Below are positions 10,422 through 55,439 of a DNA stretch of 58,129 bases, in pieces; the first letter of the stretch is position 1; each line of letters starts with the position of its first letter. Source of the stretch: an uncultured Candidatus Saccharibacteria bacterium (GTDB taxonomy: Bacteria > Patescibacteriota > UBA1384 > UBA12157 > JAENIV01). Both the position numbers and the translations under genes were made by a program. Where the stretch lies: positions 1-58,129 of the forward strand of contig CAYZMA010000002.1 of NCBI GenBank assembly GCA_964479405.1. Direction: 5' to 3'. The notes under the pieces are model-generated. The model did no database searches. It saw only the letters and a list, made by a program, of their open reading frames with translations, and was not told where the DNA came from.

Positions 10422-10428
10422 GGTTTAG

Positions 10429-43273: not shown

Positions 43274-44389
43274 ATGATAAAAAAAATTTGCATGCTCACA
43301 ACCAGCGAGATTTTTCATGACTCACGAATTCTAAATGAAGCAGAGACCTTAAATAAGAAATATCAAGTAACAATATTGGCTCGTAAATATTCTGGGCAAA
43401 AAAACCAAAATTATAAATTTAAGATTAAACTTATAGATTATTTTAAACTACCATTCTTTCAATTAAACATTTTTTCATCATTTTTTTCTTTAGCTAAAGC
43501 GGCTTTTAAAGAAAACCCCGATATTTATCATGCACATGATCTTGACGGGCTTTTATGTACTATGCCCGCAGCTTTGGTTAAATGCAAGACATTAATTTAT
43601 GATTCTCACGAGTTATGGTCTGATACATACCCTTTTGCTAATCTAAGGGGTATTCAGTGGCTTTTGCCAGTTTTGGAAAAAATATTAATGACAAAAGTCA
43701 GAAGTGGTATTACGGTTAATGACTCTCTGGCAAAAATACTTCACTTAAAATATGGCAAAGATTTTATTTCTCTTTACAATACTCCTACCTTAAAAAAGTT
43801 AACTAAAACCCAATTGAATCTTAAAAAGGAATTTCCTGATAAAAAAATTATTCTTCATCTTGGTGCGGCCGACGAAGGCCGGGGAATGGAGGAGATGATT
43901 GAAGCGGTTAAGTTTCTGCCAAAAAACAATATTATGGTTTTTATTGGTGGTGGAAAAACAGAAAACGAACTGAAAGAACTTATTAAAAAAGAAAATTTGG
44001 CAAAAAAAGTTCACTTTTCTCTAGCAGTACCGCCAGAGCAAATAATTTCAATTGTTAAACAAGCTGATCTGGCTTTGGCGTTGACTCAACCAATTTCTAA
44101 AAGTTATTACTATTCGTTGCCGAATAAAATTTTTCAATATATTGCGGCTGAGACACCGATTTTAGGCAGTAATTTTCCAGAATACAAAAAAATTATACTT
44201 CAAAATAATATTGGCGAAGTGGTAAATCCAGCTAGATCGAAATTAATTGCTCAAAAAATTATCAGTATGACTAAGCCAATTGTCCAGAAGAAATACCGTC
44301 GTAACCTTGTGGGATTGGCTAAAACAAAATATAATTGGTCCATTGAAGAAAAAAAACTTGTCAAGTTCTATCAAAATTTGGTAGATTGA
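43274..44389 (+). CDS. GT4-like glycosyltransferase, a paralogue of 24189..25373
   Basis: See 24189..25373. YHAHDLDGL, LIYDSHELW, YYYSLPNKIFQYIAAETPILGSNFP. Confidence 0.75.
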   Translation: MIKKICMLTTSEIFHDSRILNEAETLNKKYQVTILARKYSGQKNQNYKFKIKLIDYFKLPFFQLNIFSSFFSLAKAAFKENPDIYHAHDLDGLLCTMPAALVKCKTLIYDSHELWSDTYPFANLRGIQWLLPVLEKILMTKVRSGITVNDSLAKILHLKYGKDFISLYNTPTLKKLTKTQLNLKKEFPDKKIILHLGAADEGRGMEEMIEAVKFLPKNNIMVFIGGGKTENELKELIKKENLAKKVHFSLAVPPEQIISIVKQADLALALTQPISKSYYYSLPNKIFQYIAAETPILGSNFPEYKKIILQNNIGEVVNPARSKLIAQKIISMTKPIVQKKYRRNLVGLAKTKYNWSIEEKKLVKFYQNLVD

Positions 44390-44394
44390 ATCTA

Positions 44395-45486
44395 ATGAAA
44401 AAAATTATCACCATTATCGGCGCCAGGCCTCAATTTATTAAAACACCTTTAGTTTCTAAAGAAATTAGAAAATTTGCCAAAGAAATTTTGGTTCATACAG
44501 GTCAACATTATGATGCTAATATGTCGGCGGTCTTTTTTAATGAACTTAAAATTCCCAAAGCTGATTATAATTTAAATGTTGGCTCTGGAAATCAAGGACA
44601 ACAAACTGGCGAAATGTTGGAAAAAATTGAACAAGTTTTACTTAAAGAAAAACCAGATTTAGTAATTATTTACGGTGATACAAACTCAACTGTTTCTGGA
44701 GCATTGGCAGCAGTTAAATTACATATTCCAGTGGCTCATATTGAATCAGGTATGCGTTCTTATAACAGACAAATGCCGGAAGAAATAAATCGTATAATTT
44801 CAGATCATATATCCGAACTTTTGTTTTGTTCAACCATGTCTTCAGCAAAAATATTAAAAGAAGAAGGAATTGCAAAAGGGGTTTATTTTGTGGGGGATGT
44901 GATGGCAGATATACAGAAAAAAATCCGAAATCCGAAATCCGAAATCCGAAACAAATTATTTAAAACTCTAAATATCAAACCAAAAGAATATATTTTGGCG
45001 ACGGTCCATAGGCAAGAAAACACCGATATTAAAGAAAATTTAGAAAATATTTTTAAGGCGATGGGGCAGATTGGAGAGACAATAATTTTACCTTTGCATC
45101 CTAGAACTAAGAAGGCGATTAAAACTCATAAACTTCAAACATTAGTTGATAAAAACTCAAATTTGCGACTAATAGAACCAATTGGTTATCTTGAGATGCT
45201 TGCTTTAGGATCAAGTGCAAAAATGATTTTAACTGATTCTGGCGGAGTTCAAAAAGAAGCTTATTTAAATAAAGTGCCTTGCATTACTTTGCGTAAAGAA
45301 ACTGAATGGATTGAAACAATTCAATCTGGCTGGAATCAATTAGCAAATACCAATGTGAATAAAATAGTTCGTTTAGTCAAAAACTTTCCTAAACCAAAAA
45401 ACCATCCTAATTTTTTAGGTAATGGGAAGGCCTATCTAGAAATAGCTCAAAAGATTAAAGAATTTTTAATAAGAACTAAAATTTAA
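44395..45486 (+). CDS. wecB: Non-hydrolysing UDP-GlcNAc(A) 2-epimerase (WecB/WbpI/MnaA family)
   Basis: IIGARPQFIK, HTGQHYD, YGDTNST, HIESGMRSYNRQMPEEINR, VHRQENTD, TDSGGVQKEA. ATG at 44395 is preferred over the TTG at 44386. Confidence 0.9.
   Translation: MKKIITIIGARPQFIKTPLVSKEIRKFAKEILVHTGQHYDANMSAVFFNELKIPKADYNLNVGSGNQGQQTGEMLEKIEQVLLKEKPDLVIIYGDTNSTVSGALAAVKLHIPVAHIESGMRSYNRQMPEEINRIISDHISELLFCSTMSSAKILKEEGIAKGVYFVGDVMADIQKKIRNPKSEIRNKLFKTLNIKPKEYILATVHRQENTDIKENLENIFKAMGQIGETIILPLHPRTKKAIKTHKLQTLVDKNSNLRLIEPIGYLEMLALGSSAKMILTDSGGVQKEAYLNKVPCITLRKETEWIETIQSGWNQLANTNVNKIVRLVKNFPKPKNHPNFLGNGKAYLEIAQKIKEFLIRTKI
44922..44949 (+). repeat. Perfect heptanucleotide tandem repeat (aatccga) x4 inside the 2-epimerase CDS
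   Basis: Read directly. It encodes ..KKIRNPKSEIRNK.. in the inter-domain linker. The unit length is not a multiple of 3. Confidence 0.9.
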
Positions 45487-46244
45487 TATTTATAGTCACT
45501 TAGTTTAATGTAATTGTATTGACCGATTCTTACAGGTCCATTAGGGGCGATTTTTAGCATTGTTTTATCTCTTAAGTCAATAACACTAACCTTAACTTTT
45601 AGATTGCTCATATGTTCGCGGGCTTTTGAATTTTTTTCATCAGTTGCCGTTAAAAAGAATACTTGGCTGTTGGCATGTTTGCCGGCTACTTGTTCTTCAA
45701 TTGATTGGTCAAGCCAAATATTAGTGGTTGGGTCCAAAACTTGCCAGCGGTCATTAAGTTTTATCTCTATAATTCCATGACCTGGATAAATTGCTAAAGT
45801 TCTAAATTCGTATCCAGATTTATCCAGTAACATGGCAAGCAATGCGGTATAATTTCCGCAGTGCAAATAATCACCACCCCATATTAATTCTTTGATTGAT
45901 AATTCTTTAAGACTTCTTTCGTTGTAATAAGCCGACATATGAACAAAATTCATGTAGAACAGGGCCTTTAATTTTCTCTCGTCAGTTGTACCGGCCATTT
46001 TGGCGAAAGTCTTATGATATTTGACTAATCGTTTATCTAATTTTTGATCTACGATGGTTGCATTGTCTTCATTACCGTCTAGTATTTCATCTTTGTTAAA
46101 TATTTTATAGTAAGCTTTGGATGAATTAGGGTCTAGGTAAATAAATTGGCGCCAACAAAAATATCCGATTAGAGCAAGGATTAAAATTGAGATAAAAATT
46201 AGTATTGCCAGACGGATTTTTGAGGAAAATATTTTATTTAGCAT
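45483..46244 (-). CDS. Membrane-anchored transglutaminase-like (Cys-His-Asp fold) protein
   Basis: N-terminal hydrophobic helix (LAILIFISILILALIGYF). YLHCGNYTALLAMLLDKSGYEFRTLAIYPGHGIIEIKLNDRWQVLDPT fits the transglutaminase-core order C..H..D. Confidence 0.6.
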   Translation of the reverse strand: MLNKIFSSKIRLAILIFISILILALIGYFCWRQFIYLDPNSSKAYYKIFNKDEILDGNEDNATIVDQKLDKRLVKYHKTFAKMAGTTDERKLKALFYMNFVHMSAYYNERSLKELSIKELIWGGDYLHCGNYTALLAMLLDKSGYEFRTLAIYPGHGIIEIKLNDRWQVLDPTTNIWLDQSIEEQVAGKHANSQVFFLTATDEKNSKAREHMSNLKVKVSVIDLRDKTMLKIAPNGPVRIGQYNYIKLSDYKY

Positions 46245-46250
46245 TGTATT

Positions 46251-46278
46251 TTGAATATACTACTCTAAATGATATATT
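46251..46278 (+). promoter_or_regulatory. Promoter candidate TTGAAT, 16-nt spacer, TATATT, ending 6 nt before the ATG at 46285 (leaderless or near-leaderless transcript)
   Basis: TTGAAT at 46251..46256 and TATATT at 46273..46278. There is no SD-like purine run in the 6 nt before the ATG. The whole divergent intergenic region is only 40 bp. Confidence 0.4.
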
Positions 46279-46284
46279 TAAAGT

Positions 46285-48543
46285 ATGAATTTGTTTTTTC
46301 ACAAGAAACAGACATTTTATGTTTATTTTTCTTGTTTTTTAGTTCTCAATTTTATTTTACTAATAAATAACTTTTTCCCGTCAAGACCGGTAATGATATT
46401 TTCAACTTTTTTAAGTGCAATATTTATTCCGGGGTATGTTTTAAGTCGCGTTATAAAAATTCAATACGAAGGTTTTGTTGGTCAGCTAATTCTGTGGCTA
46501 ACTCTAGGCTTAAGCTTTAATCTTTTACTTTGTTTCTTGGCTGTTGTTGGTGGTTTAACAATTTCAGTTTTTTTACAATTTTACTTTGTCGCTATGGCAT
46601 TATTGTTGATTGTGGCTTTTGTTTTGGAATTGCTAAAACCTGCTGATCAAGAAATAAAAATCAGTTTAAATTACCGAGAAATTTTTAAGGCTCAGAATCT
46701 AATCTATTTTTTCTTGTTTATCTTAATAGTTTTAGTTTTGGTGACAGTTGATCAATTGGGAACAAATTTTACCGGTGATCCGTTTTATCATCTCTCTTTT
46801 ATGCGCAAGGCTATTGAAGGTCAACCAATGACGATTAATAATTTGAGCTATCTTAAGAATGATTTTCCAATTGCCTATGTAATTCCACTAAGTCATGTTT
46901 TCTTAACATTGTTTGTGAAATTGACCAACAGTAATATTTTTACTCTCTACCGTGAGCTTTCTACCGTTTTAACGCTTATTTCTTTTTTGGTCTGGTATTG
47001 GTTATTTGTTAAAGTTTTACCTAATCGTCAAGTAGCTTTTTTAGCGCTTTTTTTATTGATACTTTATTATTTTGATAAAAACGCTTATTTATATACCCGT
47101 TTAGCAATTCCGGATACCTTTGGTAATTTAATTTTGTTGCCGTTGTCATTTGGTTTGGTAATTAACTATGTTTTTGACAAATCTTCAACTTACAAACATC
47201 TGATTATTGTTTCGTTAATGATTGCTTTGATGGGTTTGTATCATTTTACTCAATATTTTTATTTTCTTTTAGCAATGGGACTGTGGGTTGTGCTATATGC
47301 AATATTTAACTATAAAAAAGAAGATTTTTGGTTGATTTTGAAAAAAATATTTCAATGTATTTTTGTCAACATGATTTTAATTGTACCAATTTTGCTTTTC
47401 TGGTTATTAAAGAACAATACTTTTAGTAAAAGTCTTCAGGTTTTTTCGGCAGTGACTAGAACTTCTAATAATGATCGGTTTGAAAAATTTTCGCCTTACA
47501 TGCAGTTGTCTTATGTCTTTTTGCCATTTATAATTCTTTTCTTCAAAAAATACCGGTCGCTTATTTTTCTTTTGAGTGTTTTTCTGGTTGGTCCTTTAAT
47601 TTACAATATTCCTGGTTTAGAAAATTTGATGCGTCATTATTTTAGTCATATTTTTGTAAATCGTCTTTATGGCAATTTAGGAGAATGGCCTTATGCTATT
47701 TGGGCTTTAGTATTGTTTTTTCTTTTTATTTTGGTTGACAGGTTAATGATAAAATTAAATGCCTTTTCAAAATATCTTAAATACTTAATTAATAGTGTTC
47801 TTGTAGTTATTTTGGGATGGATGTTTTATTTACAAAGTAAGGAAGGTAAAATCTTATCTTATTACAATCAAATTTTTCGTTCAGAAGGACTACACAATTG
47901 GCTAAGTGGCAGTTATCATTGGCTGATCCCGCTTACGATGGCAGTTGCTCTAGCGCTCTACATTGGTCAAAAATATTCGCTTAAAATAAATAATTTTTTT
48001 GAGTTTAAAAATATTCAAAATCAATCAACAGTATTAATTTTAATGTTGATTGTAGTCTTTTTTATATTGTCACCTGCTTATAATCATTTAAGTGTTTATG
48101 CTAATAAGGTGTTAGTCAATAACCACTTTTTTTCTGTTGCCACAGACCCAACATTGGACATTATTAATCCAACTCAATTTGGTGGAATGGAAACCATTGA
48201 GTTTATTAAAAACAATATTCCGTCTAAATCTGTTTTTGATACCAATTCTAGGGCAAATTATTCTTTGCCAACATTGGTTGATGTTCATATGGCTTCTTGG
48301 ACGAATAATGATGATGTTGATCCGACAAAATTATATCAAGGTTTGTATGAAAAAATTCCGCTTAACGACAAACTTAATTTACTTAAAAAAGGCGACATTG
48401 ACTATATTATTTATGTCTATAATAAAAACAAAGAGTTGGCACCATTTGAGGCCTATCCGAAATACTTTAAAAAAATATATACTAATACCAATGCAGTGAT
48501 TTTTCAAATAGATAAAATAGCAGTTAAAAATAGTTTATACTAA
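46285..48543 (+). CDS. Giant polytopic membrane protein, GT-C-like, unassigned family (tandem paralogue 1 of 3)
   Basis: 752 aa with about 15 hydrophobic segments and a ~130-aa hydrophilic C-terminal domain. Motifs IFIPGYVL, GDPFYHLSFMRKAIEG, AYVIPLSH, IPDTFGNLILLPL, FVNRLYGNL are shared with the next two genes. Confidence 0.6.
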   Translation: MNLFFHKKQTFYVYFSCFLVLNFILLINNFFPSRPVMIFSTFLSAIFIPGYVLSRVIKIQYEGFVGQLILWLTLGLSFNLLLCFLAVVGGLTISVFLQFYFVAMALLLIVAFVLELLKPADQEIKISLNYREIFKAQNLIYFFLFILIVLVLVTVDQLGTNFTGDPFYHLSFMRKAIEGQPMTINNLSYLKNDFPIAYVIPLSHVFLTLFVKLTNSNIFTLYRELSTVLTLISFLVWYWLFVKVLPNRQVAFLALFLLILYYFDKNAYLYTRLAIPDTFGNLILLPLSFGLVINYVFDKSSTYKHLIIVSLMIALMGLYHFTQYFYFLLAMGLWVVLYAIFNYKKEDFWLILKKIFQCIFVNMILIVPILLFWLLKNNTFSKSLQVFSAVTRTSNNDRFEKFSPYMQLSYVFLPFIILFFKKYRSLIFLLSVFLVGPLIYNIPGLENLMRHYFSHIFVNRLYGNLGEWPYAIWALVLFFLFILVDRLMIKLNAFSKYLKYLINSVLVVILGWMFYLQSKEGKILSYYNQIFRSEGLHNWLSGSYHWLIPLTMAVALALYIGQKYSLKINNFFEFKNIQNQSTVLILMLIVVFFILSPAYNHLSVYANKVLVNNHFFSVATDPTLDIINPTQFGGMETIEFIKNNIPSKSVFDTNSRANYSLPTLVDVHMASWTNNDDVDPTKLYQGLYEKIPLNDKLNLLKKGDIDYIIYVYNKNKELAPFEAYPKYFKKIYTNTNAVIFQIDKIAVKNSLY

Positions 48544-48547
48544 TATT

Positions 48548-50701
48548 ATGGTCAAACATCTTGTTTGTTTAGTATTTGGGTTATTAATTTTTGTTCTTGG
48601 AATAATTTTTCCCGGAATTTTTAGTAATCCGTTATCGTTCACTATATATTTTTTGTATATTATTTTTCTACCAGGTTGGCTTATAGGACAAATTTTAAAA
48701 TTACCAACCAATGAATTAATCAATAGTATTTTAATTTATTTTGTTTTAGGAATAGGTTTTTATTTGGTAATTAATTTCTTGGCTATTGTGGCTGGAATTA
48801 AAATATCTGTTCTTTTAGTAATCATCTTCACTCTTTTAGGAATATTATTTGTGATCTCTTTTGTTTTGAATGGTAGAAAATTAGAGAATATAAATTTAGA
48901 TTTTCAGAAATTGTTTAAAATTGTTTTTAGCCGTCCAAATGTGTTTTTCTTGATTCCAATAGCAATTGGTGGATTTATAATTTGGCTTTTGGCTTTACAA
49001 GGACCTAATTTAAATGGTGATCCTTATTTTCATTTAGCAATCATTCGTAAGGCATTGGAAGGGAGCTCTCTTTCCAGTCGAGCATTGGCTTTAACAGAAA
49101 CTCAACTAATTAATATTGCTTATGCTTTTCCTGCTTGGCATATTTTCTTGGTAAGTGTGGGAAAATTTTTGTCATTAGATGTTTTTGCTATTTGGACAAA
49201 CATCATCTTTGCTTTAACAATAATTTCTTTTTTTGTTTGGTATTATTTAGCAAAAATAATTTTTAAAAATGTCATTTGGGCTGTTGTAGGTCTAACTTTA
49301 ATGCTGATTTTTACTGTCTACAGTGGTCCAGGGTATTTGTTTAGTCGCTTAGGCGTGCCAGATACATTAGCTCAACTTATTCTTTTGCCTCTTGGTTGGG
49401 GGTTAGCGCTGGATTATATTTTAAATTCAAAAACAAAAATTTTAATTCCAGCATTGGTAATAGCTTTTGCTTTACTGGCTGTTCATGCACCACATTATTT
49501 TTATTTACTAATATCTATGATATTGTTTGGAATTATTTACGCCATAACTAATTTTAAAAGCGATGATTACAGATTAGTTTTACGACGGTTTGCAAATTTT
49601 GTGTTGATTAAGGTAGTAATATTGGTGATTTTAGGAATAACTATTGAGATAAAATCAGGTAGTTTAATTTTTTCTTTAAGTCAATTTATGCAAATTACCG
49701 ATGGAACATTTTTTTCAGTCACTTGGCAAAAATTTGGGTTACTTTATAAATACGGGTATTTGTTATTACCACTTTTTATTTTATTTTGGCGGTTTAAAAA
49801 TCTGCAATTTATTTTTACTCTTATGATTCTGGCACCTTTAATTTATTGGACTCCATTGAAGAATGTTTTAAATCAATTACTAAGTGGAGTTTTTATTGAC
49901 AGGTTACTAGCTAACACAGCTTTGTATTTCTTTGTCTTTGCTTTTATTTTGGAACTAGGATTTCTTTTGGTTGATAGTTGGGTGCAAAAACAATCAAAAG
50001 TAAGTCTTACACTTATAAATTTAGTTTTGGTTGTAATTTTTACTGGATTAGTAATTTTAGAAATTAGAACCCAAGTAGTTTCGGATTTTACTTATCAGCT
50101 TTTTTATGATAAAATGACCAATGCTTGGGTTAATAATTATTCATTATGCCTATTAGGTTTAGTATTGCTTCTTGTGTTGATATTGTCTTTAGCAAAAGTT
50201 TCTAAAAAAATTGATCTTGAAAAAAATTTTACTCAACCTATATCAGTTTTTATTTTGTTTTTAATAATTTCTTTTATTTTGGTTTCGCCTTCATTTGTTA
50301 ATGCTAAAAATATAACCCAAAATTCAGTAAAAAAAGGACAAGAATATTTTTTGGCAGGTATCAATAATGACAGTAACGCACTAAATTTTGTTCAATCTAG
50401 GATTCCTGTAAAATCAACTATTCTAACAGACGGAGGCACATCTAAAAGCTTGGTGGTTTTAACTAACCAATATGTGGCATACAATATTGGCTCGGCTTAT
50501 GAGAAAAAATTTCAATGGGTTTTTGATTCTACCACTTCAGATGAAGCCAAAGCAGAAATTGTGACTGATCCAAAATGGGCGATCGATTATATTTATTTGG
50601 CAAAGCCTTCTTTGGAAGATACTCACTTTAAAGCACACACTGAAATTTATCAGTTAATTTATAATAATGGCCAAACGGAGATATATAAAATAATAAAATA
50701 G
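48548..50701 (+). CDS. Giant polytopic membrane protein, GT-C-like, unassigned family (tandem paralogue 2 of 3)
   Basis: 717 aa. Motifs IIFLPGWLI, GDPYFHLAIIRKALEG, AYAFPAWH, VPDTLAQLILLPL, FIDRLLANT. Confidence 0.6.
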   Translation: MVKHLVCLVFGLLIFVLGIIFPGIFSNPLSFTIYFLYIIFLPGWLIGQILKLPTNELINSILIYFVLGIGFYLVINFLAIVAGIKISVLLVIIFTLLGILFVISFVLNGRKLENINLDFQKLFKIVFSRPNVFFLIPIAIGGFIIWLLALQGPNLNGDPYFHLAIIRKALEGSSLSSRALALTETQLINIAYAFPAWHIFLVSVGKFLSLDVFAIWTNIIFALTIISFFVWYYLAKIIFKNVIWAVVGLTLMLIFTVYSGPGYLFSRLGVPDTLAQLILLPLGWGLALDYILNSKTKILIPALVIAFALLAVHAPHYFYLLISMILFGIIYAITNFKSDDYRLVLRRFANFVLIKVVILVILGITIEIKSGSLIFSLSQFMQITDGTFFSVTWQKFGLLYKYGYLLLPLFILFWRFKNLQFIFTLMILAPLIYWTPLKNVLNQLLSGVFIDRLLANTALYFFVFAFILELGFLLVDSWVQKQSKVSLTLINLVLVVIFTGLVILEIRTQVVSDFTYQLFYDKMTNAWVNNYSLCLLGLVLLLVLILSLAKVSKKIDLEKNFTQPISVFILFLIISFILVSPSFVNAKNITQNSVKKGQEYFLAGINNDSNALNFVQSRIPVKSTILTDGGTSKSLVVLTNQYVAYNIGSAYEKKFQWVFDSTTSDEAKAEIVTDPKWAIDYIYLAKPSLEDTHFKAHTEIYQLIYNNGQTEIYKIIK

Positions 50702-50728
50702 CAAAGCTAACTTTGCGCGGAATTTTTT
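50701..50728 (+). terminator. Weak hairpin plus T-run between paralogues 2 and 3
   Basis: gcaaag-ctaa-ctttgc (50701..50716), then gcggaa and T6 (50723..50728). The stem is short and AT-rich, so it may only attenuate. Confidence 0.3.
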
Positions 50729-50740
50729 AGCAAGGAAAAT

Positions 50741-52915
50741 ATGAAGATTAGAGTCGTTTATCTATATTTGGGATATATTGTTTGGCTAGTCTCTTTAGTA
50801 TTTTTAATTAAAATTTTGCATTTAAACAATACTGTGTTAGGAATTACATTGGTTTTTTTGACTTTAATTCTTACTCCTGGCGTTTTACTTTTCCGGTTGA
50901 TTCCTTTTGGAGCTGAAAATAATGCCGCTAAAATACTGTTAATTATTGGTCTCAGTTTTGGTTATTATTTTTTGCTTAATTTTTTAGCAATTGTAACTAG
51001 CTTAAGTCTTTATTATCTGAGTTTGGTTACTTTTTTCTTAATTCTAATTTTGTTTATTATTGCTTTAATCAAAGATTGCAATAATGTATCTGAAGTAAAT
51101 ACTTCCTGGTTTAAAAAACAGTCAATAACCGATTATCTTATTTTATTAATTTTAGTTATTAGCTCAATTTTTGTTTTTCTAATGATGAGTGCCCAGTCAG
51201 AAAAATTAATTGGCGATGGTTGGTTTCATTCGGCGATTTTGCAAAAAATTATTTCAAGTGACAATTTAAATCCATATAATCTTTGGGTAACAAAAACGAC
51301 ATCTTTGAATTTAGTTTATTCCTTTCCGATTTGGCATATTTTGGTGGGAGAAATATCAAAGTTGATTAATGCCTCAATCTTTACGACTTTAAAGCAGGTC
51401 TTACTACCTTTATCTATTTTTACTTTAATTACATGGTATTGTTTAATAAGTGTTATTTTCAAAAACAAATATCTTGTAACTGTTGTGTATCTGTCTTTCT
51501 TTCTAGTTTTTCTTAAAGATAATAATTTTTATTATCTTGTGGCTGTTACTTCACCAGATTCTTTTAATCGATTATTTTTATTACCATTAATAATGGGAAT
51601 TGTTGTCAATTTAATATTTTTTAAGAAATCAAAAAATATTCCTACCATTATCCTGATTAGTTTATTGGCAATATTTTTGGGATTAGTCCACTTTATTCAA
51701 TTTATTTATTTAATAATTATTCTTGTTGTTTTTGTAATTCTTCTTTTTATTTTCTTTAGAAAAAAAGATTCTCTAGTTAAGTCGGTGTACTTGTTAGGTG
51801 GTTTGGTATTATTTGTTTTACCATACCTTTTAATTCATTATCAGTCTGTAATAAAATTTTTGAATGAAAATTCTATTTATTTTGTTAATAACAAAATTGA
51901 TTATCGTCCCTATCCAGGAATGAATATCATTTATCGTTATGCAATTTTGATTTTAGTGCCGATATTACTTTTTTTAAAGAAATATCCTCGTCTTATTCTT
52001 TTATACGCTATTGGCTGTGTCTCTTTGATTATTTATTGGCCATATTTTGGTTTAAAAGGTTCATTTTATGAATATCTTGGAAAGATTTTTGTTGATCGAT
52101 CTTTAGCGAATTTACCCCATTTTATTTTTTTCGGATTTGCTCTATTCATGGTTTTAATTGGTATTAATTATTTGACAGTTAAATTATTTAAGAAATTTAT
52201 TTGGGTTGCGAATATTTTGATAGCAATACTTGTTTTAACTTTACCGCTTTATAAGAATACTGTTATATATTTTGTTAAAAATATTCTTTATTCAGAAACT
52301 TTATTTTTTAATGGTCTGTCATTTTGGTTAGCATTATTTGTTGTAATTATTCTTACAATTACAATTTATGTTTTAACTTACAAAAAAAGTGTCACAATCC
52401 CTTCGCCATTTAATAACTTAAACTTTGTTTTATGGATGCTTTTAATGGTTATAGCTTTAACTTTGCCTTATTTTGAAAGTGCAAACAAAGTCTTGACTAA
52501 TAATCCAAATGGGAGCTTAATTACTGACAGGACATCAAAATATGCGATTGAAACAGAAAATTATGGAGGTGAAAAAACAGTTGATTTTTGGAAATCTCAG
52601 ACTAGAAAAGTATTTTTAACCGATAATGTAACAATGTCTCAGCTAATTTTGCTTTATTCCGATAATTATGTTGCCGAATACCCTTATGGTATTTCAAAAT
52701 TTAATTTTAGTCTTGATTTTTACCAACCAGATCAACCAGACGATATTAAATTTACTCTCTTAAACAATCGAGAGATAAATTTTATAGTAACAAGAGATAC
52801 ATCTGAACAATCGTTTTTTAATCGCTACCTAGATCATTTTAAAAAAGTTTATGAAATACACTATATCAATAAGAATAAAAACAAGGAACTTTATATTTAT
52901 CAATATTTAAAGTAA
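50741..52915 (+). CDS. Giant polytopic membrane protein, GT-C-like, unassigned family (tandem paralogue 3 of 3)
   Basis: 724 aa. Motifs LILTPGVLL, GDGWFHSAILQKIIS, VYSFPIWH, SPDSFNRLFLLPL, FVDRSLANL. AAGGA SD. Confidence 0.6.
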   Translation: MKIRVVYLYLGYIVWLVSLVFLIKILHLNNTVLGITLVFLTLILTPGVLLFRLIPFGAENNAAKILLIIGLSFGYYFLLNFLAIVTSLSLYYLSLVTFFLILILFIIALIKDCNNVSEVNTSWFKKQSITDYLILLILVISSIFVFLMMSAQSEKLIGDGWFHSAILQKIISSDNLNPYNLWVTKTTSLNLVYSFPIWHILVGEISKLINASIFTTLKQVLLPLSIFTLITWYCLISVIFKNKYLVTVVYLSFFLVFLKDNNFYYLVAVTSPDSFNRLFLLPLIMGIVVNLIFFKKSKNIPTIILISLLAIFLGLVHFIQFIYLIIILVVFVILLFIFFRKKDSLVKSVYLLGGLVLFVLPYLLIHYQSVIKFLNENSIYFVNNKIDYRPYPGMNIIYRYAILILVPILLFLKKYPRLILLYAIGCVSLIIYWPYFGLKGSFYEYLGKIFVDRSLANLPHFIFFGFALFMVLIGINYLTVKLFKKFIWVANILIAILVLTLPLYKNTVIYFVKNILYSETLFFNGLSFWLALFVVIILTITIYVLTYKKSVTIPSPFNNLNFVLWMLLMVIALTLPYFESANKVLTNNPNGSLITDRTSKYAIETENYGGEKTVDFWKSQTRKVFLTDNVTMSQLILLYSDNYVAEYPYGISKFNFSLDFYQPDQPDDIKFTLLNNREINFIVTRDTSEQSFFNRYLDHFKKVYEIHYINKNKNKELYIYQYLK

Positions 52916-54106
52916 ATTTTCTTCCAAAACTCTATAAAAATTGTCATCAGAGAATTGTCTGATTGCCAGTTGACGAGCATTTTGGGAGAATTTTTTTAAT
53001 TTTTGAGGGTTCTGATAAAGTTCTAAAATTGCCTTGGCAAGCATTTGACTATCACCCGGAGCCACAACAATCCCAACTTGATTTTTTTCAATCAATTCTT
53101 TAAGATTTTTACCGGCGCAGGCGACAATTGGCTTACCGCAACCAAGGTATTCCGAAGTTTTGGTCGGTAAAGCATTGTCGGAAAAGAATTTGTTTTTGGA
53201 AAGCGAAATAATGCCTAAATCGGCCGCATTAATCAGTTCAACAATTTTTTCCGTTGGCTGGCTGTTGATAAAAGACATATTTTTTAGTTTGGCATTTTCG
53301 GCGGCAGTAATAAGGTTACCTTTGTCCTCACCCTCGCCAACCATTAATATCTTTATTTTTGGGTATTTTTTTAAAATTGATGCTGCTTCAATCACAGTTT
53401 TAAGATTTTGAACTTGAGTCAGAGAGCCAACATAAATAATGATAAAATCTTGGGGAAGAAGACCAAGTTTTTGCCGATTTATTTTTATAGGTTTAAAAAT
53501 ATTGGTATTAACCGTATTAAGGAGGGCCACAACTTTATTTTGGGGTGTACCCATTTCAATAATTGTTTGGCGGATTTCTTCGGTAGCGCAAAAGATTTTA
53601 TTGGCGCGAAGATAATAGTATTTTTCTAAATTTTTAAGAATTTTTTTGATCAAACCATTACTTTTATAACCCAGTTCAAAAGCGGAATCTGGCCAAAGGT
53701 CGCGGACATCAAAAATAAATTTACCTCCGCCTATTCGCCGGGCAAAAAGACCGGCTAGTCCGGAGAAAAAATTGGGTGAAGAGACAATAACTAAGTCAAA
53801 AGTGGGCATAAAAAGAACAGCGACGCAACATGAAAAAACAAACATCAAATGATTAAAGGTTCTTTTAATAAAACCCATATTTGGGGTAGGAAAATCCCAA
53901 ACGCGAAAAATTTTAACATTATTTTCAAAAGATTTGACCCACAATTGACCACGATATTCTTTAGGTAATATACCGGTGGGATACGAGGGTAGACTAGTTA
54001 AAACCGTGACATTATGTTTTTTAGCTAAAAATTCAGCCATTCTAACCATTCGTTTAACTGGCGATTTAATTGGCTGATACCAATGGCTAATGAGAAGTAT
54101 TTTCAT
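52907..54106 (-). CDS. GT4 glycosyltransferase of the WbuB/WcaI-like type (candidate L-6-deoxy-HexNAc transferase)
   Basis: MKILLISHWYQP..LTSLPSYPTG N-terminus and LPTKTSEYLGCGKPIVACAG..VGIVVAPGD. ATGA overlap with the upstream small membrane protein gene. Confidence 0.65.
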   Translation of the reverse strand: MKILLISHWYQPIKSPVKRMVRMAEFLAKKHNVTVLTSLPSYPTGILPKEYRGQLWVKSFENNVKIFRVWDFPTPNMGFIKRTFNHLMFVFSCCVAVLFMPTFDLVIVSSPNFFSGLAGLFARRIGGGKFIFDVRDLWPDSAFELGYKSNGLIKKILKNLEKYYYLRANKIFCATEEIRQTIIEMGTPQNKVVALLNTVNTNIFKPIKINRQKLGLLPQDFIIIYVGSLTQVQNLKTVIEAASILKKYPKIKILMVGEGEDKGNLITAAENAKLKNMSFINSQPTEKIVELINAADLGIISLSKNKFFSDNALPTKTSEYLGCGKPIVACAGKNLKELIEKNQVGIVVAPGDSQMLAKAILELYQNPQKLKKFSQNARQLAIRQFSDDNFYRVLEENLL

Positions 54107-54456
54107 TTTCTTTTCTTAACATTCTTTAAGGCCAAAGCTCTTACAAGTCTGGTGATTTCTTTTTCTTGTTCATTACTTTTGACATAAAGACGATAAGTGG
54201 CGTAAAAAAGAGCAACAATACTTAAGAAAAACATGGCATCATTGCCCCTCTCCATGCCGAGCATTTTAGCTAAAAAGTTTGTTTTACCGGGGATAAAAAC
54301 TAAAAGAATCATCAATGCCCAAACAAACGACCAAAAAATTAACTCTTTGTAATTTAAATCTTTACTTCTAAATCTAATTAAAACTCGCGACCAAGCAAAA
54401 ATGGCAAATAGGGTAAAGATAATTTTTATTAGAGCTAAACCGCCAAAAATATGCAT
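54103..54456 (-). CDS. Small 3-4-TM membrane protein, DUF2304-like from memory, with a basic C-terminal helix
   Basis: 117 aa. MLGMERGNDAMFFLSIVALFYATYRLYVK..EITRLVRALAL resembles the G-RG-D...RL..R.LA pattern that I recall for DUF2304 proteins paired with GT2 genes. Confidence 0.5.
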   Translation of the reverse strand: MHIFGGLALIKIIFTLFAIFAWSRVLIRFRSKDLNYKELIFWSFVWALMILLVFIPGKTNFLAKMLGMERGNDAMFFLSIVALFYATYRLYVKSNEQEKEITRLVRALALKNVKKRK

Positions 54457-54468
54457 GAAATAAAATTT

Positions 54469-54580
54469 CCAATTATTCTAATTAATCTAATTGACCTAAT
54501 AAACTTCTAATTTCTAAAATTATTTTTGGATATTTTAACATTAGATATTAGGATTTGATTAGAATAATTAGGTTAATTGG
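54469..54580. repeat. AT-rich inverted arrays of 9-bp ctaatta-type units, the same family as the outer arms at 2471..2620
   Basis: Left arm ccaattattctaattaatctaattgacctaat. Right arm attagaataattaggttaattgg. The reverse complement of the right arm, ccaattaacctaattattctaat, shares the same units with the left arm. It lies in a 204-bp gap inside a minus-strand gene string. Confidence 0.7.
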
Positions 54581-54660
54581 GATTTGGGAATTTATTGTTT
54601 ACTTACTAAAAAATCTTCTATATTTCGGAATATTGAAATTCCGCGACGATTTTTTAAAAT

Positions 54661-55347
54661 TCACTTTGAAAAAAATCGTCTATATATTAACTTAGATATT
54701 ATTCTGAAACCATTAATGTTTTTTTGCCCTTTTCCCAAAGAGTATTTAGTATAAATGCTAGTGATGGGCACTTCAAGTAATTTTAAATTGTTTCGGTTAA
54801 TTTCATAGAAAAATTCAGAAGAAACCTCCATTTTGTTTGACTGAAGGTCAATTAGGTCAATGGCTTTGCGATTGAACGCGCGGAGACCCGATTGCGAATC
54901 AGTCGTCCACACCCAAAAGAAAAAGAAGGTAATTAAGTTTAGACCCCAAATACCAATAATTCTGTACCAAGGCATGCCGTCGGTTTTTTTTAGGCGCGAG
55001 CCAATAACAACATCGGCTTTTTTTTGAGTTAGAGGTTTTAAAACCGGCCAAATATCTTCCTGATTGTGTTGACCGTCGGCATCAAAAGTTAGAAGCAAGT
55101 CAAAATTATTTCTTCTGATGTATTCAAAACCGGTCCCTAAGGCGCCACCTAAACCGCGATTAAGATCGTGCTCAATGACAATTACTTTTAATTTTTGGGC
55201 AATTTCAACTGTTTTGTCTTTTGAGCCGTCGGAAATAACAATAATTTGCGTTTGACTAATTTTAGGAAAGCGACGGGGGATTGATTTAATAACTTTTGCT
55301 AAAGTTTTTTCTTCATTGTAAGCCGGAATAAGAATTGCCAGTTTCAT
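54661..55347 (-). CDS. Short soluble-type GT2 (DPM1/PpgS/dolichyl-phosphate-glycosyltransferase-like polyprenyl-phosphate sugar synthase candidate)
   Basis: LAILIPAYNEE, IIVISDGSKD, LTFDADGQHN. The ATG at 55347 is preferred over the upstream in-frame ATG at 55395. Confidence 0.8.
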   Translation of the reverse strand: MKLAILIPAYNEEKTLAKVIKSIPRRFPKISQTQIIVISDGSKDKTVEIAQKLKVIVIEHDLNRGLGGALGTGFEYIRRNNFDLLLTFDADGQHNQEDIWPVLKPLTQKKADVVIGSRLKKTDGMPWYRIIGIWGLNLITFFFFWVWTTDSQSGLRAFNRKAIDLIDLQSNKMEVSSEFFYEINRNNLKLLEVPITSIYTKYSLGKGQKNINGFRIISKLIYRRFFSK

Positions 55348-55413
55348 GGTGTTTTTAATATATGATATAAAAAAATAAAATGACAGTTTCGTCAAGGGTA
55401 TGGATAGTGAGAC

Positions 55414-55429
55414 TAAAATTTGCTAAAAT
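55414..55429 (+). promoter_or_regulatory. Extended -10 promoter candidate (tTGcTAAAAT) for the tRNA-Ser gene
   Basis: taaaatttgctaaaat ends 10 nt before the tRNA 5' end. It shares 15 of 16 positions with 1412..1427. Confidence 0.45.
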
Positions 55430-55439
55430 GTGTTTGTAT

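What the first reader, a model, noticed from the sequence alone, without database searches (positions are those of the whole stretch)
46285..52915. Tandem triplet of ~720-aa, ~15-TM paralogous membrane proteins that I cannot place in a named family (candidate new GT-C-like clade)
Seen in the sequence:
- Three consecutive same-strand genes encode proteins of 752, 717 and 724 aa, with gaps of 4 and 39 bp.
- The proteins are colinear. Each has an N-terminal block of 4-5 hydrophobic helices with a conserved PG motif (IFIPGYVL / IIFLPGWLI / LILTPGVLL).
- A loop follows with GDPFYHLSFMRKAIEG / GDPYFHLAIIRKALEG / GDGWFHSAILQKIIS.
- Further shared motifs are AYVIPLSH / AYAFPAWH / VYSFPIWH, IPDTFGNLILLPL / VPDTLAQLILLPL / SPDSFNRLFLLPL and FVNRLYGNL / FIDRLLANT / FVDRSLANL.
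- Each ends in a ~130-aa hydrophilic domain that finishes with ..IDYIIY../..IYKI-type strands.
- Overall identity looks low, so the copies are old and diverged.
- A fourth, more distant copy sits at 17003..19045.

Established knowledge: GT-C enzymes (ArnT, PMT, PglB, YfhO, mycobacterial arabinosyltransferases) are large polytopic proteins. They carry an acidic residue in an early extracytoplasmic loop and have a soluble extracytoplasmic domain. They use polyprenyl-phosphate-linked donors.

Inference: these are extracytoplasmic glycosyl or oligosaccharyl transferases or polymerases. The triplication may reflect different acceptor or donor specificities.

Two points are unusual. The candidate catalytic Asp loop comes after an extra 4-5-TM module rather than after TM1. 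I also do not see the hallmark motifs of the STT3/PglB, Wzy or WaaL families.
Basis: partly seen in the sequence, partly recalled or inferred. Interest (0 to 1): 0.8.

Follow-up and report, generated by a model that had tools for sequence, protein, structure and literature searches.

The report
Three tandem GT-C glycosyltransferase paralogs
Three neighbouring genes in a Patescibacteria (CPR) sugar-polymer gene island encode old, diverged copies of an unstudied membrane glycosyltransferase family that most likely adds sugars to a cell-surface glycan from outside the membrane, which makes it a new branch of a well-known enzyme type, not a new kind of system.

Summary
The triplet is real: three co-linear ORFs of 752, 717 and 724 aa, 25-28% identical over their full length (E = 1e-31 to 6e-71).

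An AlphaFold model of the middle copy (pLDDT 91) matches only GT-C enzymes in the PDB (STT3, AftA, DPY19, ArnT, PglB, AglB, AftB). It shows 17 TM helices: 4 extra N-terminal helices plus a 13-TM core and an outward-facing C-terminal alpha/beta domain. The invariant D158-x3-H162, H313 and R452 sit on the outer face, paralleling AftA's D128/R132/R415.

The window proteins hit no Pfam or NCBIfam model, but orthologs at 48% identity pass the DUF6541 threshold, so the family is not entirely unplaced.

The "fourth copy" is not a copy. It belongs to a separate, borderline PMT_2 GT-C family.

The three copies are three ancient orthologous clades. g2+g3 are always followed by convergent GT4, DUF2304 (GacJ/Rv3632-like) and PpgS/GacI-like GT2 genes (9 of 9 places with downstream DNA). 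g1 is facultative and usually travels with a membrane-anchored transglutaminase-fold protein.

Best reading: a multi-GT-C version of the known three-component extracytoplasmic glycosylation pathway, restricted to Patescibacteria. Function is inferred, not shown. Interest is moderate.

The parts
46285..48543 (+). g1: 752-aa GT-C-fold paralog (g1-type clade). It is facultative: present in 6 of the 10 places where its slot is readable.
   Evidence: ORF. 28% identical to g2 (E = 6e-71) and 27% to g3 (E = 1e-38). Clade assignment. Presence and absence across loci.
48548..50701 (+). g2: 717-aa GT-C-fold paralog (g2-type clade), the modelled copy. It has 17 TM helices plus an outside C-terminal alpha/beta domain.
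   Evidence: ORF. AF2 model pLDDT 91.2, pTM 0.92. Foldseek matches only GT-C enzymes. Orthologs pass the Pfam DUF6541 gathering score.
50741..52915 (+). g3: 724-aa GT-C-fold paralog (g3-type clade). It always accompanies g2.
   Evidence: ORF. 25% identical to g2 (E = 1e-31). Clade assignment. g2+g3 are adjacent in all 10 places that reach the g3 position.
48548..48871 (+). g2 residues 1-108: extra N-terminal module of 4 TM helices that precedes the GT-C core. It carries the conserved P42-G43 motif.
   Evidence: Helices 2-26, 28-50, 57-82 and 86-108 in the AF2 model. P42/G43 are conserved in all clades and in the second tier. No Pfam match, GtrA included.
49016..49051 (+). g2 residues 157-168 (GDPYFHLAIIRK): start of the first long outside loop, holding the candidate catalytic D158, its partner H162, and K168.
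   Evidence: Invariant in A1 and across clades: D158 in 123 of 126 sequences. It sits directly after TM5 and opens a juxtamembrane helix. Parallels AftA D128-x3-R132 (PMC10265970). The equivalence is inferred, not superposed.
49361..49363 (+). g2 D272 (P271-D272), on the outside loop between core TM3 and TM4: candidate second acidic residue.
   Evidence: Invariant in the g2 and g3 clades. D in 40, H in 13 and N in 2 of 55 g1-type sequences. Loop side.
49484..49486 (+). g2 H313, at the outside tip of a short helical hairpin (299-312 / 314-334).
   Evidence: Conserved in 126 of 126 sequences, second tier included. Position from the AF2 secondary structure.
49901..49903 (+). g2 R452 (FxxR motif) in an outside loop with membrane-parallel helices: candidate binder of the donor phosphate.
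   Evidence: Conserved in 124 of 126 sequences. Parallels AftA R415, which contacts the decaprenyl-phosphate phosphate (PMC10265970). Inferred.
50321..50698 (+). g2 residues 592-717: extracytoplasmic C-terminal alpha/beta domain with 5 strands.
   Evidence: AF2 secondary structure. Follows TM17 on the outside face. Comparable to the alpha5beta5 soluble core of AftA and other prokaryotic GT-C enzymes.
54661..55395 (-). 244-aa GT2: PpgS/GacI-like polyprenyl-phosphate sugar synthase, the candidate maker of the lipid-linked donor.
   Evidence: NCBIfam PpgS E = 2.4e-42 over profile positions 4-223 of 226 (145 bits, below the equivalog cutoff of 370). Next come AglJ, a Dol-P-hexose transferase, PgfS and ArnC. 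70-92% identical and syntenic in 8 related loci.
54103..54456 (-). 117-aa small membrane protein of the DUF2304 family (GacJ/Rv3632 family), the candidate activator of the GT2.
   Evidence: Pfam DUF2304 E = 3.7e-24. GacJ and Rv3632 stimulate GacI and PpgS (bioRxiv 10.1101/180810; PMC9671496). Syntenic at 77-93% identity.
52907..54106 (-). 399-aa GT4 (WcaI-family) cytoplasmic glycosyltransferase. It is convergent with g3 and overlaps it by 9 bp. It is always part of the conserved block; its role is unknown.
   Evidence: NCBIfam WcaI-family subfamily model E = 1.3e-52 and Pfam Glycos_transf_1. Syntenic at 65-88% identity.
45483..46244 (-). p253: membrane-anchored, outward-facing transglutaminase / papain-like-fold protein with a C129-H156-D171 triad. 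Transcribed divergently from g1.
   Evidence: No Pfam or NCBIfam hit. 28-member family; the named members are Patescibacteria. AF2 pLDDT 94.3. Foldseek matches a putative cysteine protease, TglA, a TGase, PNGase, PeiP and TgpA. Triad conservation. Accompanies g1 in 5 of 6 places with g1.
44386..45486 (+). UDP-GlcNAc 2-epimerase, conserved directly upstream of the module (possible UDP-ManNAc supply).
   Evidence: Pfam Epimerase_2 E = 4.7e-98. Syntenic at 64-72% identity.
36288..37763 (+). Wzx-like (Polysacc_synt_3) membrane protein: candidate flippase of the system. Unproven.
   Evidence: Pfam E = 1.2e-21. Present in the conserved upstream block of L002, L007 and L008. GacK, the GAC side-chain flippase, is Wzx-like.

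Best explanation
g1, g2 and g3 are three anciently diverged paralogs of an uncharacterised GT-C (GT-C-A type) membrane glycosyltransferase family. In the searches run here the family was seen only in Patescibacteria.

Proposed mechanism:
1. On the cytoplasmic face, the PpgS/GacI-like GT2, helped by the GacJ/Rv3632-like DUF2304 protein, loads a sugar (probably a HexNAc) onto polyprenyl monophosphate.
2. A flippase, possibly the Wzx-like protein, moves the lipid-linked sugar to the outer face.
3. Each GT-C paralog transfers that sugar to its own acceptor position on a surface glycan made by this >55-kb island. D158 acts as catalytic base, stabilised by H162, and R452 holds the donor phosphate.
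4. g2+g3 form the obligatory pair. g1, together with the transglutaminase-fold protein p253, is an optional extra step.

Shown: paralogy, GT-C fold, outside-facing conserved residues, and conserved synteny with the donor-synthase pair.
Inferred: the roles of individual residues, the monophosphate donor, the identity of the sugar, the acceptor, and one paralog per linkage.
For: - **Paralogy:**
- **Fold:** AF2 pLDDT 91.2. The 25 best PDB matches are all GT-C enzymes. AftA gives the best TM-scores (0.46 by query, 0.54 by target), and non-GT-C matches fall to TM ~0.1.
- **Topology:** about 20 K+R in predicted inside loops against 8-10 in short outside loops, in all three clades.
- **Conserved residues:** D158, H162, K168, W197, H313 and R452 are kept in all three clades and in the weaker second tier, so all three copies look catalytically competent.
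- **Precedent for the residue pattern:** AftA uses D128 stabilised by R132 four residues later, with R415 on the donor phosphate (PMC10265970).
- **Donor-synthase pair:** GT2 is PpgS-like (E = 2e-42) and the small protein is DUF2304 (E = 4e-24). GacI/GacJ feeding GacL and PpgS/Rv3632 feeding Rv3779 are established GT2 + DUF2304 + GT-C pathways. Three-component systems with more than one GT-C have been noted (PMC11127046).
- **Synteny:** g2-g3 followed by GT4-DUF2304-GT2 in all 9 places with downstream DNA (the window plus L001, L002, L004, L005, L007-L010), even where g2 is only 32-35% identical.
- **Subfunctionalisation:** three orthologous clades in a fixed order g1-g2-g3.
Against: - There are no biochemical data for any member, and no paper mentions DUF6541, DUF6077 or their accessions.
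- The Foldseek TM-scores are modest (0.39-0.54) and no residue-level superposition was available. The D158/H162/R452 equivalences therefore rest on position in the predicted secondary structure.
- The GT2 scores below the PpgS equivalog cutoff (145 against 370 bits), so the sugar is unknown.
- No flippase is assigned with confidence.
- The same GT2/DUF2304 pair could instead, or also, feed the PMT_2-like GT-C at 16988-19045.
- STT3 and PglB, which use diphosphate-linked oligosaccharides, score as well as AftA and ArnT.
- The island has two Wzx-like proteins and no recognisable Wzy or WaaL.
- The conserved GT4 between g3 and DUF2304 has no role in the model.
- D272 is replaced by His or Asn in 15 of 55 g1-type proteins.
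Confidence: 0.6

Rival explanations
1. The three proteins use polyprenyl-diphosphate-linked oligosaccharides flipped by the Wzx-like proteins. They would then act as en-bloc transferases, ligases or polymerases, for example onto an S-layer or pilin protein or a wall polymer, in the manner of PglB/AglB. They would fill the role of the missing Wzy/WaaL.
For: - STT3, PglB and AglB are among the best structural matches, and the core has 13 TM helices like PglB.
- The window has two Wzx-like proteins and no recognisable Wzy or WaaL.
- An SLH-domain surface protein sits beside the two-copy loci L008 and L009.
Against: - The WWD(Y/W)G motif is absent from 126 of 126 sequences.
- The C-terminal domain is only ~125 aa.
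- The tightest conserved linkage is to a PpgS/GacI-like synthase and its DUF2304 partner, which make monophosphate-linked single sugars.
- AftA, a monophosphate-donor enzyme, gives the best TM-scores.
Confidence: 0.2
2. g2 and g3 (with or without g1) form an obligate hetero-oligomer, as Pmt1-Pmt2 and EmbA-EmbB do. The extra N-terminal 4-TM module would form the interface. The complex would extend one glycan processively instead of decorating three independent sites. This can coexist with the best explanation.
For: - g2 and g3 are adjacent in all 10 places that reach the g3 position, and the gene order is fixed.
- In AftA the two helices outside the GT-C core form the dimer interface, and Emb and Pmt enzymes work as dimers (PMC10265970).
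- The PG motif in the N-module is conserved across all clades.
Against:
- Adjacency is equally explained by sequential steps of one pathway.
- All three copies keep the full set of catalytic-type residues, so none looks like a mere scaffold.
Confidence: 0.25
3. The proteins are not enzymes but transporters or structural membrane proteins. In that case the similarity among them, and to GT-C enzymes, is that of generic polytopic helical bundles.
For: There is no direct Pfam, NCBIfam or PDB sequence match for the window proteins.
Against: - Transporter structures appear only at Foldseek probability <= 0.08 and TM-score ~0.1, while 25 GT-C entries score 0.98-1.00.
- The invariant outward-facing Asp, His and Arg residues fit a GT-C active site.
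- The genes sit inside a glycan-synthesis island next to a lipid-sugar synthase.
Confidence: 0.03
4. The triplet is a recent, redundant local duplication, or includes decaying copies, with no functional differentiation.
For: The genes are tandem, on one strand, and of similar length.
Against: - The copies are only 25-28% identical.
- Each has its own orthologs at 36-52% identity in other Patescibacteria, in the same order.
- All three ORFs are intact and keep the conserved residues.
Confidence: 0.02

Closest known systems
AftA (GT85), the priming arabinofuranosyltransferase of Mycobacterium tuberculosis (PDB 8IF8)
   Same: - Best structural match by TM-score (0.46 by query, 0.54 by target).
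- Extra N-terminal TM helices outside the GT-C core.
- A catalytic Asp at the start of a two-helix outside loop, with a stabilising basic residue four positions later.
- A conserved Arg for the donor phosphate.
- A small C-terminal alpha/beta periplasmic domain.
- A polyprenyl-monophosphate donor (PMC10265970).
   Different: - No detectable sequence similarity: the profile search of the PDB finds nothing at E <= 10.
- Four extra helices instead of two, and 17 TM helices instead of 13.
- His instead of Arg at the +4 position.
- Occurs as a conserved set of 2-3 paralogs.
- Different phylum, and presumably a different sugar.
GacI-GacJ-GacK-GacL (Streptococcus pyogenes group A carbohydrate) and PpgS-Rv3632-Rv3779 (mycobacterial arabinogalactan GalN): three-component extracytoplasmic glycosylation systems
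   Same: - A GT2 polyprenyl-P-HexNAc synthase, a DUF2304 activator and a GT-C transferase encoded together.
- A Wzx-like candidate flippase nearby.
- An ABC-transporter-type polysaccharide pathway in the same island.
   Different: - The GT-C component belongs to another sequence family.
- There are two or three GT-C enzymes instead of one.
- A conserved GT4 and, with g1, a transglutaminase-fold protein are part of the block.
- Nothing has been tested experimentally.
Pfam DUF6541 (PF20176) and DUF6077 (PF19554), uncharacterised integral membrane protein families
   Same: - Orthologs of g2 pass the gathering scores: DUF6541 at 41-58 bits against 29, and DUF6077 at 37-40 bits against 27.
- The matches cover the N-terminal ~430 residues, including the PG motif, the GD loop and the PD motif.
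- The weaker second-tier relatives also sit at these thresholds.
   Different: - None of the three window proteins reaches E <= 10 against either model.
- Only about two thirds of the DUF6541 profile is matched.
- Neither family has a known function or any paper in the searched library.
STT3/PglB/AglB oligosaccharyltransferases (GT66)
   Same: - Best Foldseek E-values (7e-6).
- A 13-TM GT-C-A core with acidic residues on the first and second outside loops.
- An outward-facing C-terminal domain.
   Different: - No WWD(Y/W)G motif in 126 sequences.
- A C-terminal domain of about 125 aa instead of several hundred.
- An extra N-terminal 4-TM module.
- Genetic linkage to a monophosphate-sugar synthase.
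PMT_2 / GT39-GT83-type GT-C enzymes (ArnT, PMT), including the window's own protein at 16988-19045
   Same: - Same fold class: ArnT 5EZM and 5F15 match at E ~8e-5.
- Same island.
- A weakly similar extreme C-terminal strand motif: hhalign probability 24.7% over 44 columns.
   Different: - No PMT_2 hit for g1-g3.
- The membrane cores are not alignable by profile-profile comparison.

Membership tests
GT-C fold superfamily (GT-C-A class) | Polytopic membrane domain whose 3D arrangement matches solved GT-C enzymes | tested here: met
   AF2 model pLDDT 91.2, pTM 0.92. Foldseek PDB ranks 1-25 are all GT-C enzymes (STT3, AftA, DPY19, ArnT, PglB, AglB, AftB) at probability 0.98-1.00 and TM-score 0.29-0.54. 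Non-GT-C matches have TM ~0.1.
GT-C fold superfamily (GT-C-A class) | Conserved acidic residue at the start of the first long extracytoplasmic loop, which carries two juxtamembrane helices | tested here: met
   D158 is conserved in 123 of 126 sequences. It follows TM5 and opens helix 159-170, with a second loop helix at 196-208. The loop is predicted to face outside. Equivalence to the catalytic Asp is inferred from position, not from a superposition.
GT-C fold superfamily (GT-C-A class) | Use of a polyprenyl-phosphate-linked sugar donor | not testable with these tools
   Only contextual support: a conserved adjacent PpgS/GacI-like GT2 and DUF2304 gene.
Pfam DUF6541 (PF20176) / DUF6077 (PF19554) | Score at or above the Pfam gathering threshold | tested here: inconclusive
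   The window proteins g1-g3 give no hit at E <= 10. 17 of 32 aligned family members hit DUF6541 (best E = 5.6e-16; 58.4 bits against a cutoff of 29) and 6 hit DUF6077. This is a divergent branch that the current models only partly capture.
STT3/PglB/AglB oligosaccharyltransferases (GT66) | WWD(Y/W)G motif in the C-terminal domain, and sequence match to STT3 | tested here: not met
   WWD occurs in 0 of 126 sequences. There is no Pfam STT3 hit and no PDB sequence hit.
AftA family (GT85) | Sequence similarity to AftA_N / AftA_C | tested here: not met
   No Pfam hit. The family profile against PDB sequences, which include 8IF8, finds nothing at E <= 10. The similarity is structural only.
PMT_2 / GT39 / GT83 (PMT, ArnT) | Pfam PMT_2 or PMT match | tested here: not met
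   No hit for g1-g3 or for the 32 family members. By contrast, relatives of the protein at 16988-19045 score 24.5-34.6 bits against PMT_2, and 6 of 8 pass the 26.1 cutoff.
Three-component extracytoplasmic glycosylation system (Gtr / Gac / PpgS type) | Polyprenyl-phosphate sugar synthase (GT2) encoded with the GT-C | tested here: met
   The GT2 at 54661-55395 matches PpgS at E = 2.4e-42 over the full length, followed by AglJ, a Dol-P-hexose transferase, PgfS and ArnC. It is syntenic in all related loci that have downstream DNA. It scores below the PpgS equivalog cutoff, so the sugar is unknown.
Three-component extracytoplasmic glycosylation system (Gtr / Gac / PpgS type) | Small DUF2304 partner of the synthase (GacJ / Rv3632 type) | tested here: met
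   Pfam DUF2304 E = 3.7e-24 for the ORF at 54103-54456. The role of GacJ and Rv3632 comes from 10.1101/180810 and PMC9671496.
Three-component extracytoplasmic glycosylation system (Gtr / Gac / PpgS type) | Dedicated flippase for the lipid-linked sugar | tested here: inconclusive
   Wzx-like proteins lie at 36288-37763 and 6642-8102. The first lies in the conserved upstream block. No GtrA-like protein was found, and the N-terminal 4-TM module gives no GtrA match.
Three-component extracytoplasmic glycosylation system (Gtr / Gac / PpgS type) | Demonstrated transfer of the sugar to a completed glycan outside the membrane | not testable with these tools
   Requires biochemistry or genetics.

The most novel reading that the evidence does not exclude
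This would be a Patescibacteria-specific new glycosyltransferase family whose extra, conserved N-terminal 4-TM module assembles g2-g3 (with or without g1) into a hetero-oligomeric machine for building glycans outside the membrane. That machine would work together with an outward-facing transglutaminase-fold enzyme. Because the GT-C genes diverge far faster than their 65-93%-identical neighbours, they would act as serotype-like determinants of the surface glycan. Through that glycan these epibiotic, reduced-genome bacteria could meet hosts and phages.
Probability: 0.15. Interest if true: 0.7.

Novelty: new variant of a known kind. Interest (0 to 1): 0.45.

Why it matters
Patescibacteria (CPR) are a large, mostly uncultured group with tiny genomes, and many live attached to other cells. 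Almost nothing is known about how they build their surface. A conserved block that devotes about 6.6 kb to two or three large GT-C enzymes, inside a >55-kb glycan island, suggests that modifying the surface glycan outside the membrane matters to them.

If it is characterised, the family would probably found a new CAZy GT family, as GT136 did. It would also give function to the DUF6541/DUF6077 families. It offers clear mutational targets (D158, H162, H313, R452) and a testable donor pathway (GT2 + DUF2304).

It does not reveal a new type of mechanism. GT-C enzymes and three-component glycosylation systems are well established.

Tried and rejected
- **Direct family searches.** Pfam and NCBIfam scans of the four proteins gave only noise (REJ, TgpA_N, TraG, InlK at E >= 0.08).
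- **PDB sequence searches.** Searches with g2, with the family profile, and with the g4 sequence and profile found nothing meaningful.
- **Fourth copy.** Rejected by BLASTP, by hhalign with the single sequence and family against family, and by its own PMT_2-type relatives.
- **Another long ORF as a copy.** The 692-aa ORF at 22084-24162 is a soluble GT2-GT4 fusion.
- **GtrA-like N-terminal module.** There is no GtrA hit, or any consistent hit, for ten N-terminal segments at E <= 10.
- **OST membership.** The WWD motif is absent.
- **Promoter and terminator scan of 45300-55800.** Uninformative, with fewer sites than in shuffled sequence.
- **Literature.** No paper mentions DUF6541, DUF6077, PF20176, PF19554 or IPR046671. 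Nothing relevant combines GT-C with Patescibacteria or CPR.
- **My first hydropathy script.** It produced overlapping segments. I replaced it with helix boundaries from the AF2 model plus loop charge counts.
- **Suspected masking in L002.** The slot where g1 is missing holds no N runs. It holds small unrelated ORFs instead.
- **PDB sequence search with p253.** It gave only a spurious PARP2 match. The fold search was informative instead.

Full report
**1. The observation**

The ORF listing finds three same-strand ORFs at 46285-48543 (752 aa), 48548-50701 (717 aa) and 50741-52915 (724 aa), separated by 4 and 39 bp. I call them g1, g2 and g3.

Pairwise BLASTP aligns the proteins end to end:
- g1/g2: 28% identity, E = 6e-71
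- g1/g3: 27% identity, E = 1e-38
- g2/g3: 25% identity, E = 1e-31

The paralogy is therefore real and old.

- BLASTP gives E = 2.
- hhalign of the triplet family profile against it gives probability 0.3%.
- A family-against-family comparison matches only the last ~44 residues, at probability 24.7%.
- Its own homologs sit at the Pfam PMT_2 threshold (24.5-34.6 bits, 6 of 8 scanned passing the 26.1 cutoff), and one is named a GT39-family protein.

It is a second, separate GT-C-type enzyme in the same island.

**2. Family placement**

None of the window proteins matches Pfam-A or NCBIfam at E <= 10 beyond noise. Neither g2 nor a 32-sequence family profile matches any PDB sequence.

A search of 5.8 billion proteins with g2 returned 36 relatives. 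The few that carry names are from Patescibacteria, and all six genome loci are from Patescibacteria MAGs, including Berkelbacteria and Saccharibacteria.

Scanning the aligned family gave these results:
- 17 of 32 members match DUF6541 and 6 match DUF6077.
- Orthologs 44-48% identical to g2 pass the DUF6541 gathering score (58.4, 52.3, 43.4 and 41.4 bits against 29).
- The match covers their first ~430 residues.

So the triplet is a divergent branch of two uncharacterised Pfam DUFs, not a wholly unplaced family. No paper in the library mentions either DUF or its accessions.

An exhaustive profile search of 1.84 billion representatives found only 753 proteins at E <= 1e-3 and 109 at E <= 1e-30, so the family is small. 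A weaker second tier (600-680 aa, matching only residues ~36-510) also sits at the DUF6077/DUF6541 thresholds. Two of its members carry C-terminal domains: one has carbohydrate-binding F5/8-type-C modules and one has TPR repeats.

**3. Fold and topology**

AlphaFold2 on the family alignment gave a confident model of g2 (pLDDT 91.2, pTM 0.92).

Foldseek against the PDB returned 25 GT-C entries as the top 25 matches: yeast and human STT3, AftA, DPY19, ArnT, PglB, AglB and AftB. Probabilities are 1.00 (0.98 at rank 25), and AftA gives the best TM-scores (0.46 and 0.54). The first non-GT-C entries have probability <= 0.08 and TM-score ~0.1. All matches belong to the GT-C-A class.

The helix order reads as follows:
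- Four N-terminal TM helices (2-26, 28-50, 57-82, 86-108), then a positively charged loop.
- TM5 (129-151), followed by a 60-residue loop that opens with G157-D158 and contains two helices (159-170 and 196-208).
- Twelve further TM helices.
- A C-terminal alpha/beta domain with five strands (592-717).

That makes 4 + 13 TM helices.

Counting Lys+Arg in loops across 100 family sequences gives about 20 in the predicted inside loops against 8-10 in the short outside loops, in each clade. This supports an N-in topology. It places D158, D272, H313, R452 and the C-terminal domain outside the cell.

**4. Conserved residues**

I aligned 55 g1-type, 33 g2-type, 12 g3-type and 26 second-tier sequences (counts include the window proteins). 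P42-G43, D158, H162, K168, W197, H313 and R452 are conserved in all groups. D272 is invariant in the g2 and g3 clades but is His or Asn in 15 of 55 g1-type proteins. All three copies therefore look catalytically competent.

The AftA structure paper (PMC10265970) reports four relevant points:
- The GT-C core of AftA is TM3-13, and two extra N-terminal helices form the dimer interface.
- The catalytic Asp128 lies on the first long loop and is stabilised by Arg132 four residues later.
- Arg415 contacts the donor phosphate.
- In EmbA/B/C the catalytic Asp lies on ECL2 instead of ECL1.

The pattern D158-x3-H162 plus R452 parallels this. That equivalence is my inference from position, because no residue-level superposition was available.

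The N-module gives no GtrA match or any other consistent Pfam match. The WWD motif of oligosaccharyltransferases is absent from all 126 sequences.

**5. Genomic context**

The window is essentially one glycan-synthesis island that ends at a tRNA-Ser (55439-55527). It encodes:
- a Wzm/Wzt ABC exporter with a Wzt_C domain;
- two Wzx-like proteins;
- numerous GT4 and GT2 enzymes;
- DegT aminotransferases, epimerases and dehydratases;
- two UDP-GlcNAc 2-epimerases and a UDP-sugar dehydrogenase;
- an AsnB-like amidotransferase, an ATP-grasp enzyme, an acyltransferase and methyltransferases.

Three minus-strand genes lie immediately downstream of g3, convergent with it:
- **GT4 (52907-54106):** a WcaI-family glycosyltransferase.
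- **117-aa membrane protein (54103-54456):** matches Pfam DUF2304 at E = 3.7e-24.
- **244-aa GT2 (54661-55395):** its best NCBIfam match is the polyprenyl-phospho-GalNAc synthase PpgS (E = 2.4e-42, full length, below the equivalog cutoff). AglJ, a dolichyl-phosphate hexose transferase, PgfS and ArnC follow.

DUF2304 is the family of GacJ and Rv3632. These bind and stimulate GacI and PpgS, the enzymes that make HexNAc-P-polyprenol. That lipid-linked sugar is then used outside the membrane by the GT-C enzymes GacL and Rv3779 (bioRxiv 10.1101/180810; PMC9671496). Such three-component pathways are widespread, and versions with several GT-C enzymes have been noted (PMC11127046).

**6. Comparative loci**

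Ten related loci were examined (L001-L010).

- **Three clades:** BLAST assignment of 180 family proteins plus the locus ORFs shows three orthologous clades, matching g1, g2 and g3.
- **Fixed order:** the order g1-g2-g3 is kept wherever the genes are present.
- **Core block:** g2 and g3 are adjacent in all 10 places that reach the g3 position. They are followed by GT4-DUF2304-GT2 in all 9 places with downstream DNA. This holds even where g2 is only 32-35% identical (L007-L009).
- **Facultative g1:** g1 is present in the window, L003, L004, L005, L006 and L010, and absent from L002, L007, L008 and L009. L001 begins inside g2, so its g1 slot is unread.
- **Divergence contrast:** across loci the flanking genes are much more conserved than the GT-C genes.

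| Gene | Identity to the window protein across loci |
|---|---|
| UDP-GlcNAc 2-epimerase | 64-72% |
| GT4 | 65-88% |
| DUF2304 | 77-93% |
| GT2 | 70-92% |
| g1 | 41-52% |
| g2 | 32-49% |
| g3 | 36-47% |

In L001 the flanks are 88-93% identical while g2 is 49% and g3 is 36%. The DUF2304 protein is also membrane-embedded, so membrane location alone does not explain the contrast.

**7. The g1 companion**

The 253-aa minus-strand gene at 45483-46244 (p253) has no Pfam or NCBIfam hit. Its family has 28 members, and the named ones are Patescibacteria.

Its AF2 model (pLDDT 94.3) shows one N-terminal TM helix followed by an alpha/beta domain. Foldseek matches that domain to transglutaminase / papain-like enzymes: a putative cysteine protease, TglA, a TGase, PNGase, PeiP, the TgpA periplasmic domain and arylamine N-acetyltransferases. 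C129, H156 and D171 are conserved.

p253 accompanies g1 in 5 of the 6 places with g1. In L004 it lies between g1 and g2. In the two-copy loci L008 and L009 an SLH-domain protein occupies that position. What p253 does is open. An outward-facing amidase or transamidase acting on the same glycan or lipid-linked sugar is a speculation only.

**8. Interpretation**

Most likely (about 0.6), the locus is a multi-GT-C version of the three-component extracytoplasmic glycosylation pathway.
1. GT2 + DUF2304 make a polyprenyl-monophosphate sugar.
2. A flippase, perhaps the Wzx-like protein in the conserved upstream block, exposes it on the outer face.
3. g2, g3 and the optional g1 each transfer it to a different acceptor position on a surface polymer made by the island.

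The main rival (about 0.2) is transfer or polymerisation from a diphosphate-linked oligosaccharide, in the OST style. The STT3/PglB matches and the lack of a recognisable Wzy or WaaL favour it. The missing WWD motif, the small C-terminal domain and the donor-synthase linkage argue against it.

A hetero-oligomer formed through the N-module is compatible with either reading and is untested (about 0.25). Non-enzymatic or recently duplicated, redundant readings are effectively excluded.

**9. Verdict**

The GT-C interpretation is supported by fold, topology and context.

The finding is a new, unstudied variant of a well-known enzyme type and pathway, seen here only in Patescibacteria. It has a conserved two-or-three-paralog layout, a 4-TM N-terminal add-on and an unusual transglutaminase-fold companion. 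It is worth a note for CPR cell-surface biology and as a candidate new GT family. It is not a categorically new system.

Noticed in passing
window 45483-46244 (minus strand): A conserved 253-aa protein with no family match. It has one N-terminal TM helix and an outward-facing transglutaminase / papain-like domain with a C129-H156-D171 triad. Its family has 28 members, and the named ones are Patescibacteria. It co-occurs with the g1-type GT-C in 5 of 6 places that have g1.
   Followed up: yes
window 16988-19045 (+): A 685-aa polytopic protein whose relatives sit at the Pfam PMT_2 threshold, so it is a separate GT-C-type enzyme. It carries a Pro/Thr-rich low-complexity insert (about residues 385-425, PRPTSTPTPTPIPTPALTPALTLTPIPITEP...) in a long loop. 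It has an invariant GD154 after several N-terminal helices, much like the triplet. Its homologs lie on contigs of the same lengths as contigs carrying triplet homologs (204140 and 89975 bp).
   Followed up: partly
window 44386-55395 compared with L001, L002, L004, L005, L007-L010: The GT-C genes are only 32-52% identical between loci, while the flanking epimerase, GT4, DUF2304 and GT2 genes are 64-93% identical. In L001 the flanks are 88-93% identical against 36-49% for the GT-C genes. This suggests accelerated divergence or allele replacement of the GT-C genes, as in serotype loci. No selection or recombination test was run.
   Followed up: partly
L008 6568-7731 and L009 908-2056 (minus strand): In the two-copy loci (g2+g3 only), an SLH-domain protein of 382-387 aa sits directly upstream, where p253 sits in the three-copy loci. 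From general knowledge, SLH domains bind wall polysaccharides. This hints that the acceptor is a wall polymer.
   Followed up: no
L002 6742-9848: The slot where g1 and p253 would be is filled by small ORFs. By eye these look like a nucleotidyltransferase/HEPN (DUF86)-type toxin-antitoxin pair and small regulators. There are no N runs there. This reading was not tested with a family search.
   Followed up: partly
window 9579-11664: A Wzm/Wzt-type ABC polysaccharide exporter with a Wzt_C carbohydrate-binding domain. Together with two Wzx-like proteins (6642-8102 and 36288-37763), it suggests the island serves more than one glycan export route.
   Followed up: partly
window 22084-24162 and 39703-41946: Two unusually long soluble glycosyltransferases. 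One is a 692-aa GT2-GT4 fusion. The other is a 747-aa protein whose GT4 domains occupy only residues ~394-723, leaving an unassigned N-terminal ~390 residues.
   Followed up: no
window 55439-55527, 57875-57965, 55651-57324 and 57326-57829: Two tRNA-Ser genes (TGA and GCT anticodons) bracket a 557-aa protein with no family match and a 167-aa ORF6N/Rha-like DNA-binding protein. The first tRNA marks the end of the glycan island. An ORF6N protein also follows the GT2 gene in L010.
   Followed up: partly
window 48137-48499 (+): A 120-aa ORF lies entirely inside g1 in another reading frame. It is almost certainly a spurious ORF produced by AT-rich sequence.
   Followed up: no
window 38736-39710 (+): A 324-aa protein with no Pfam or NCBIfam match. 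It is conserved at 53% identity in L002, inside the syntenic block upstream of the triplet.
   Followed up: no
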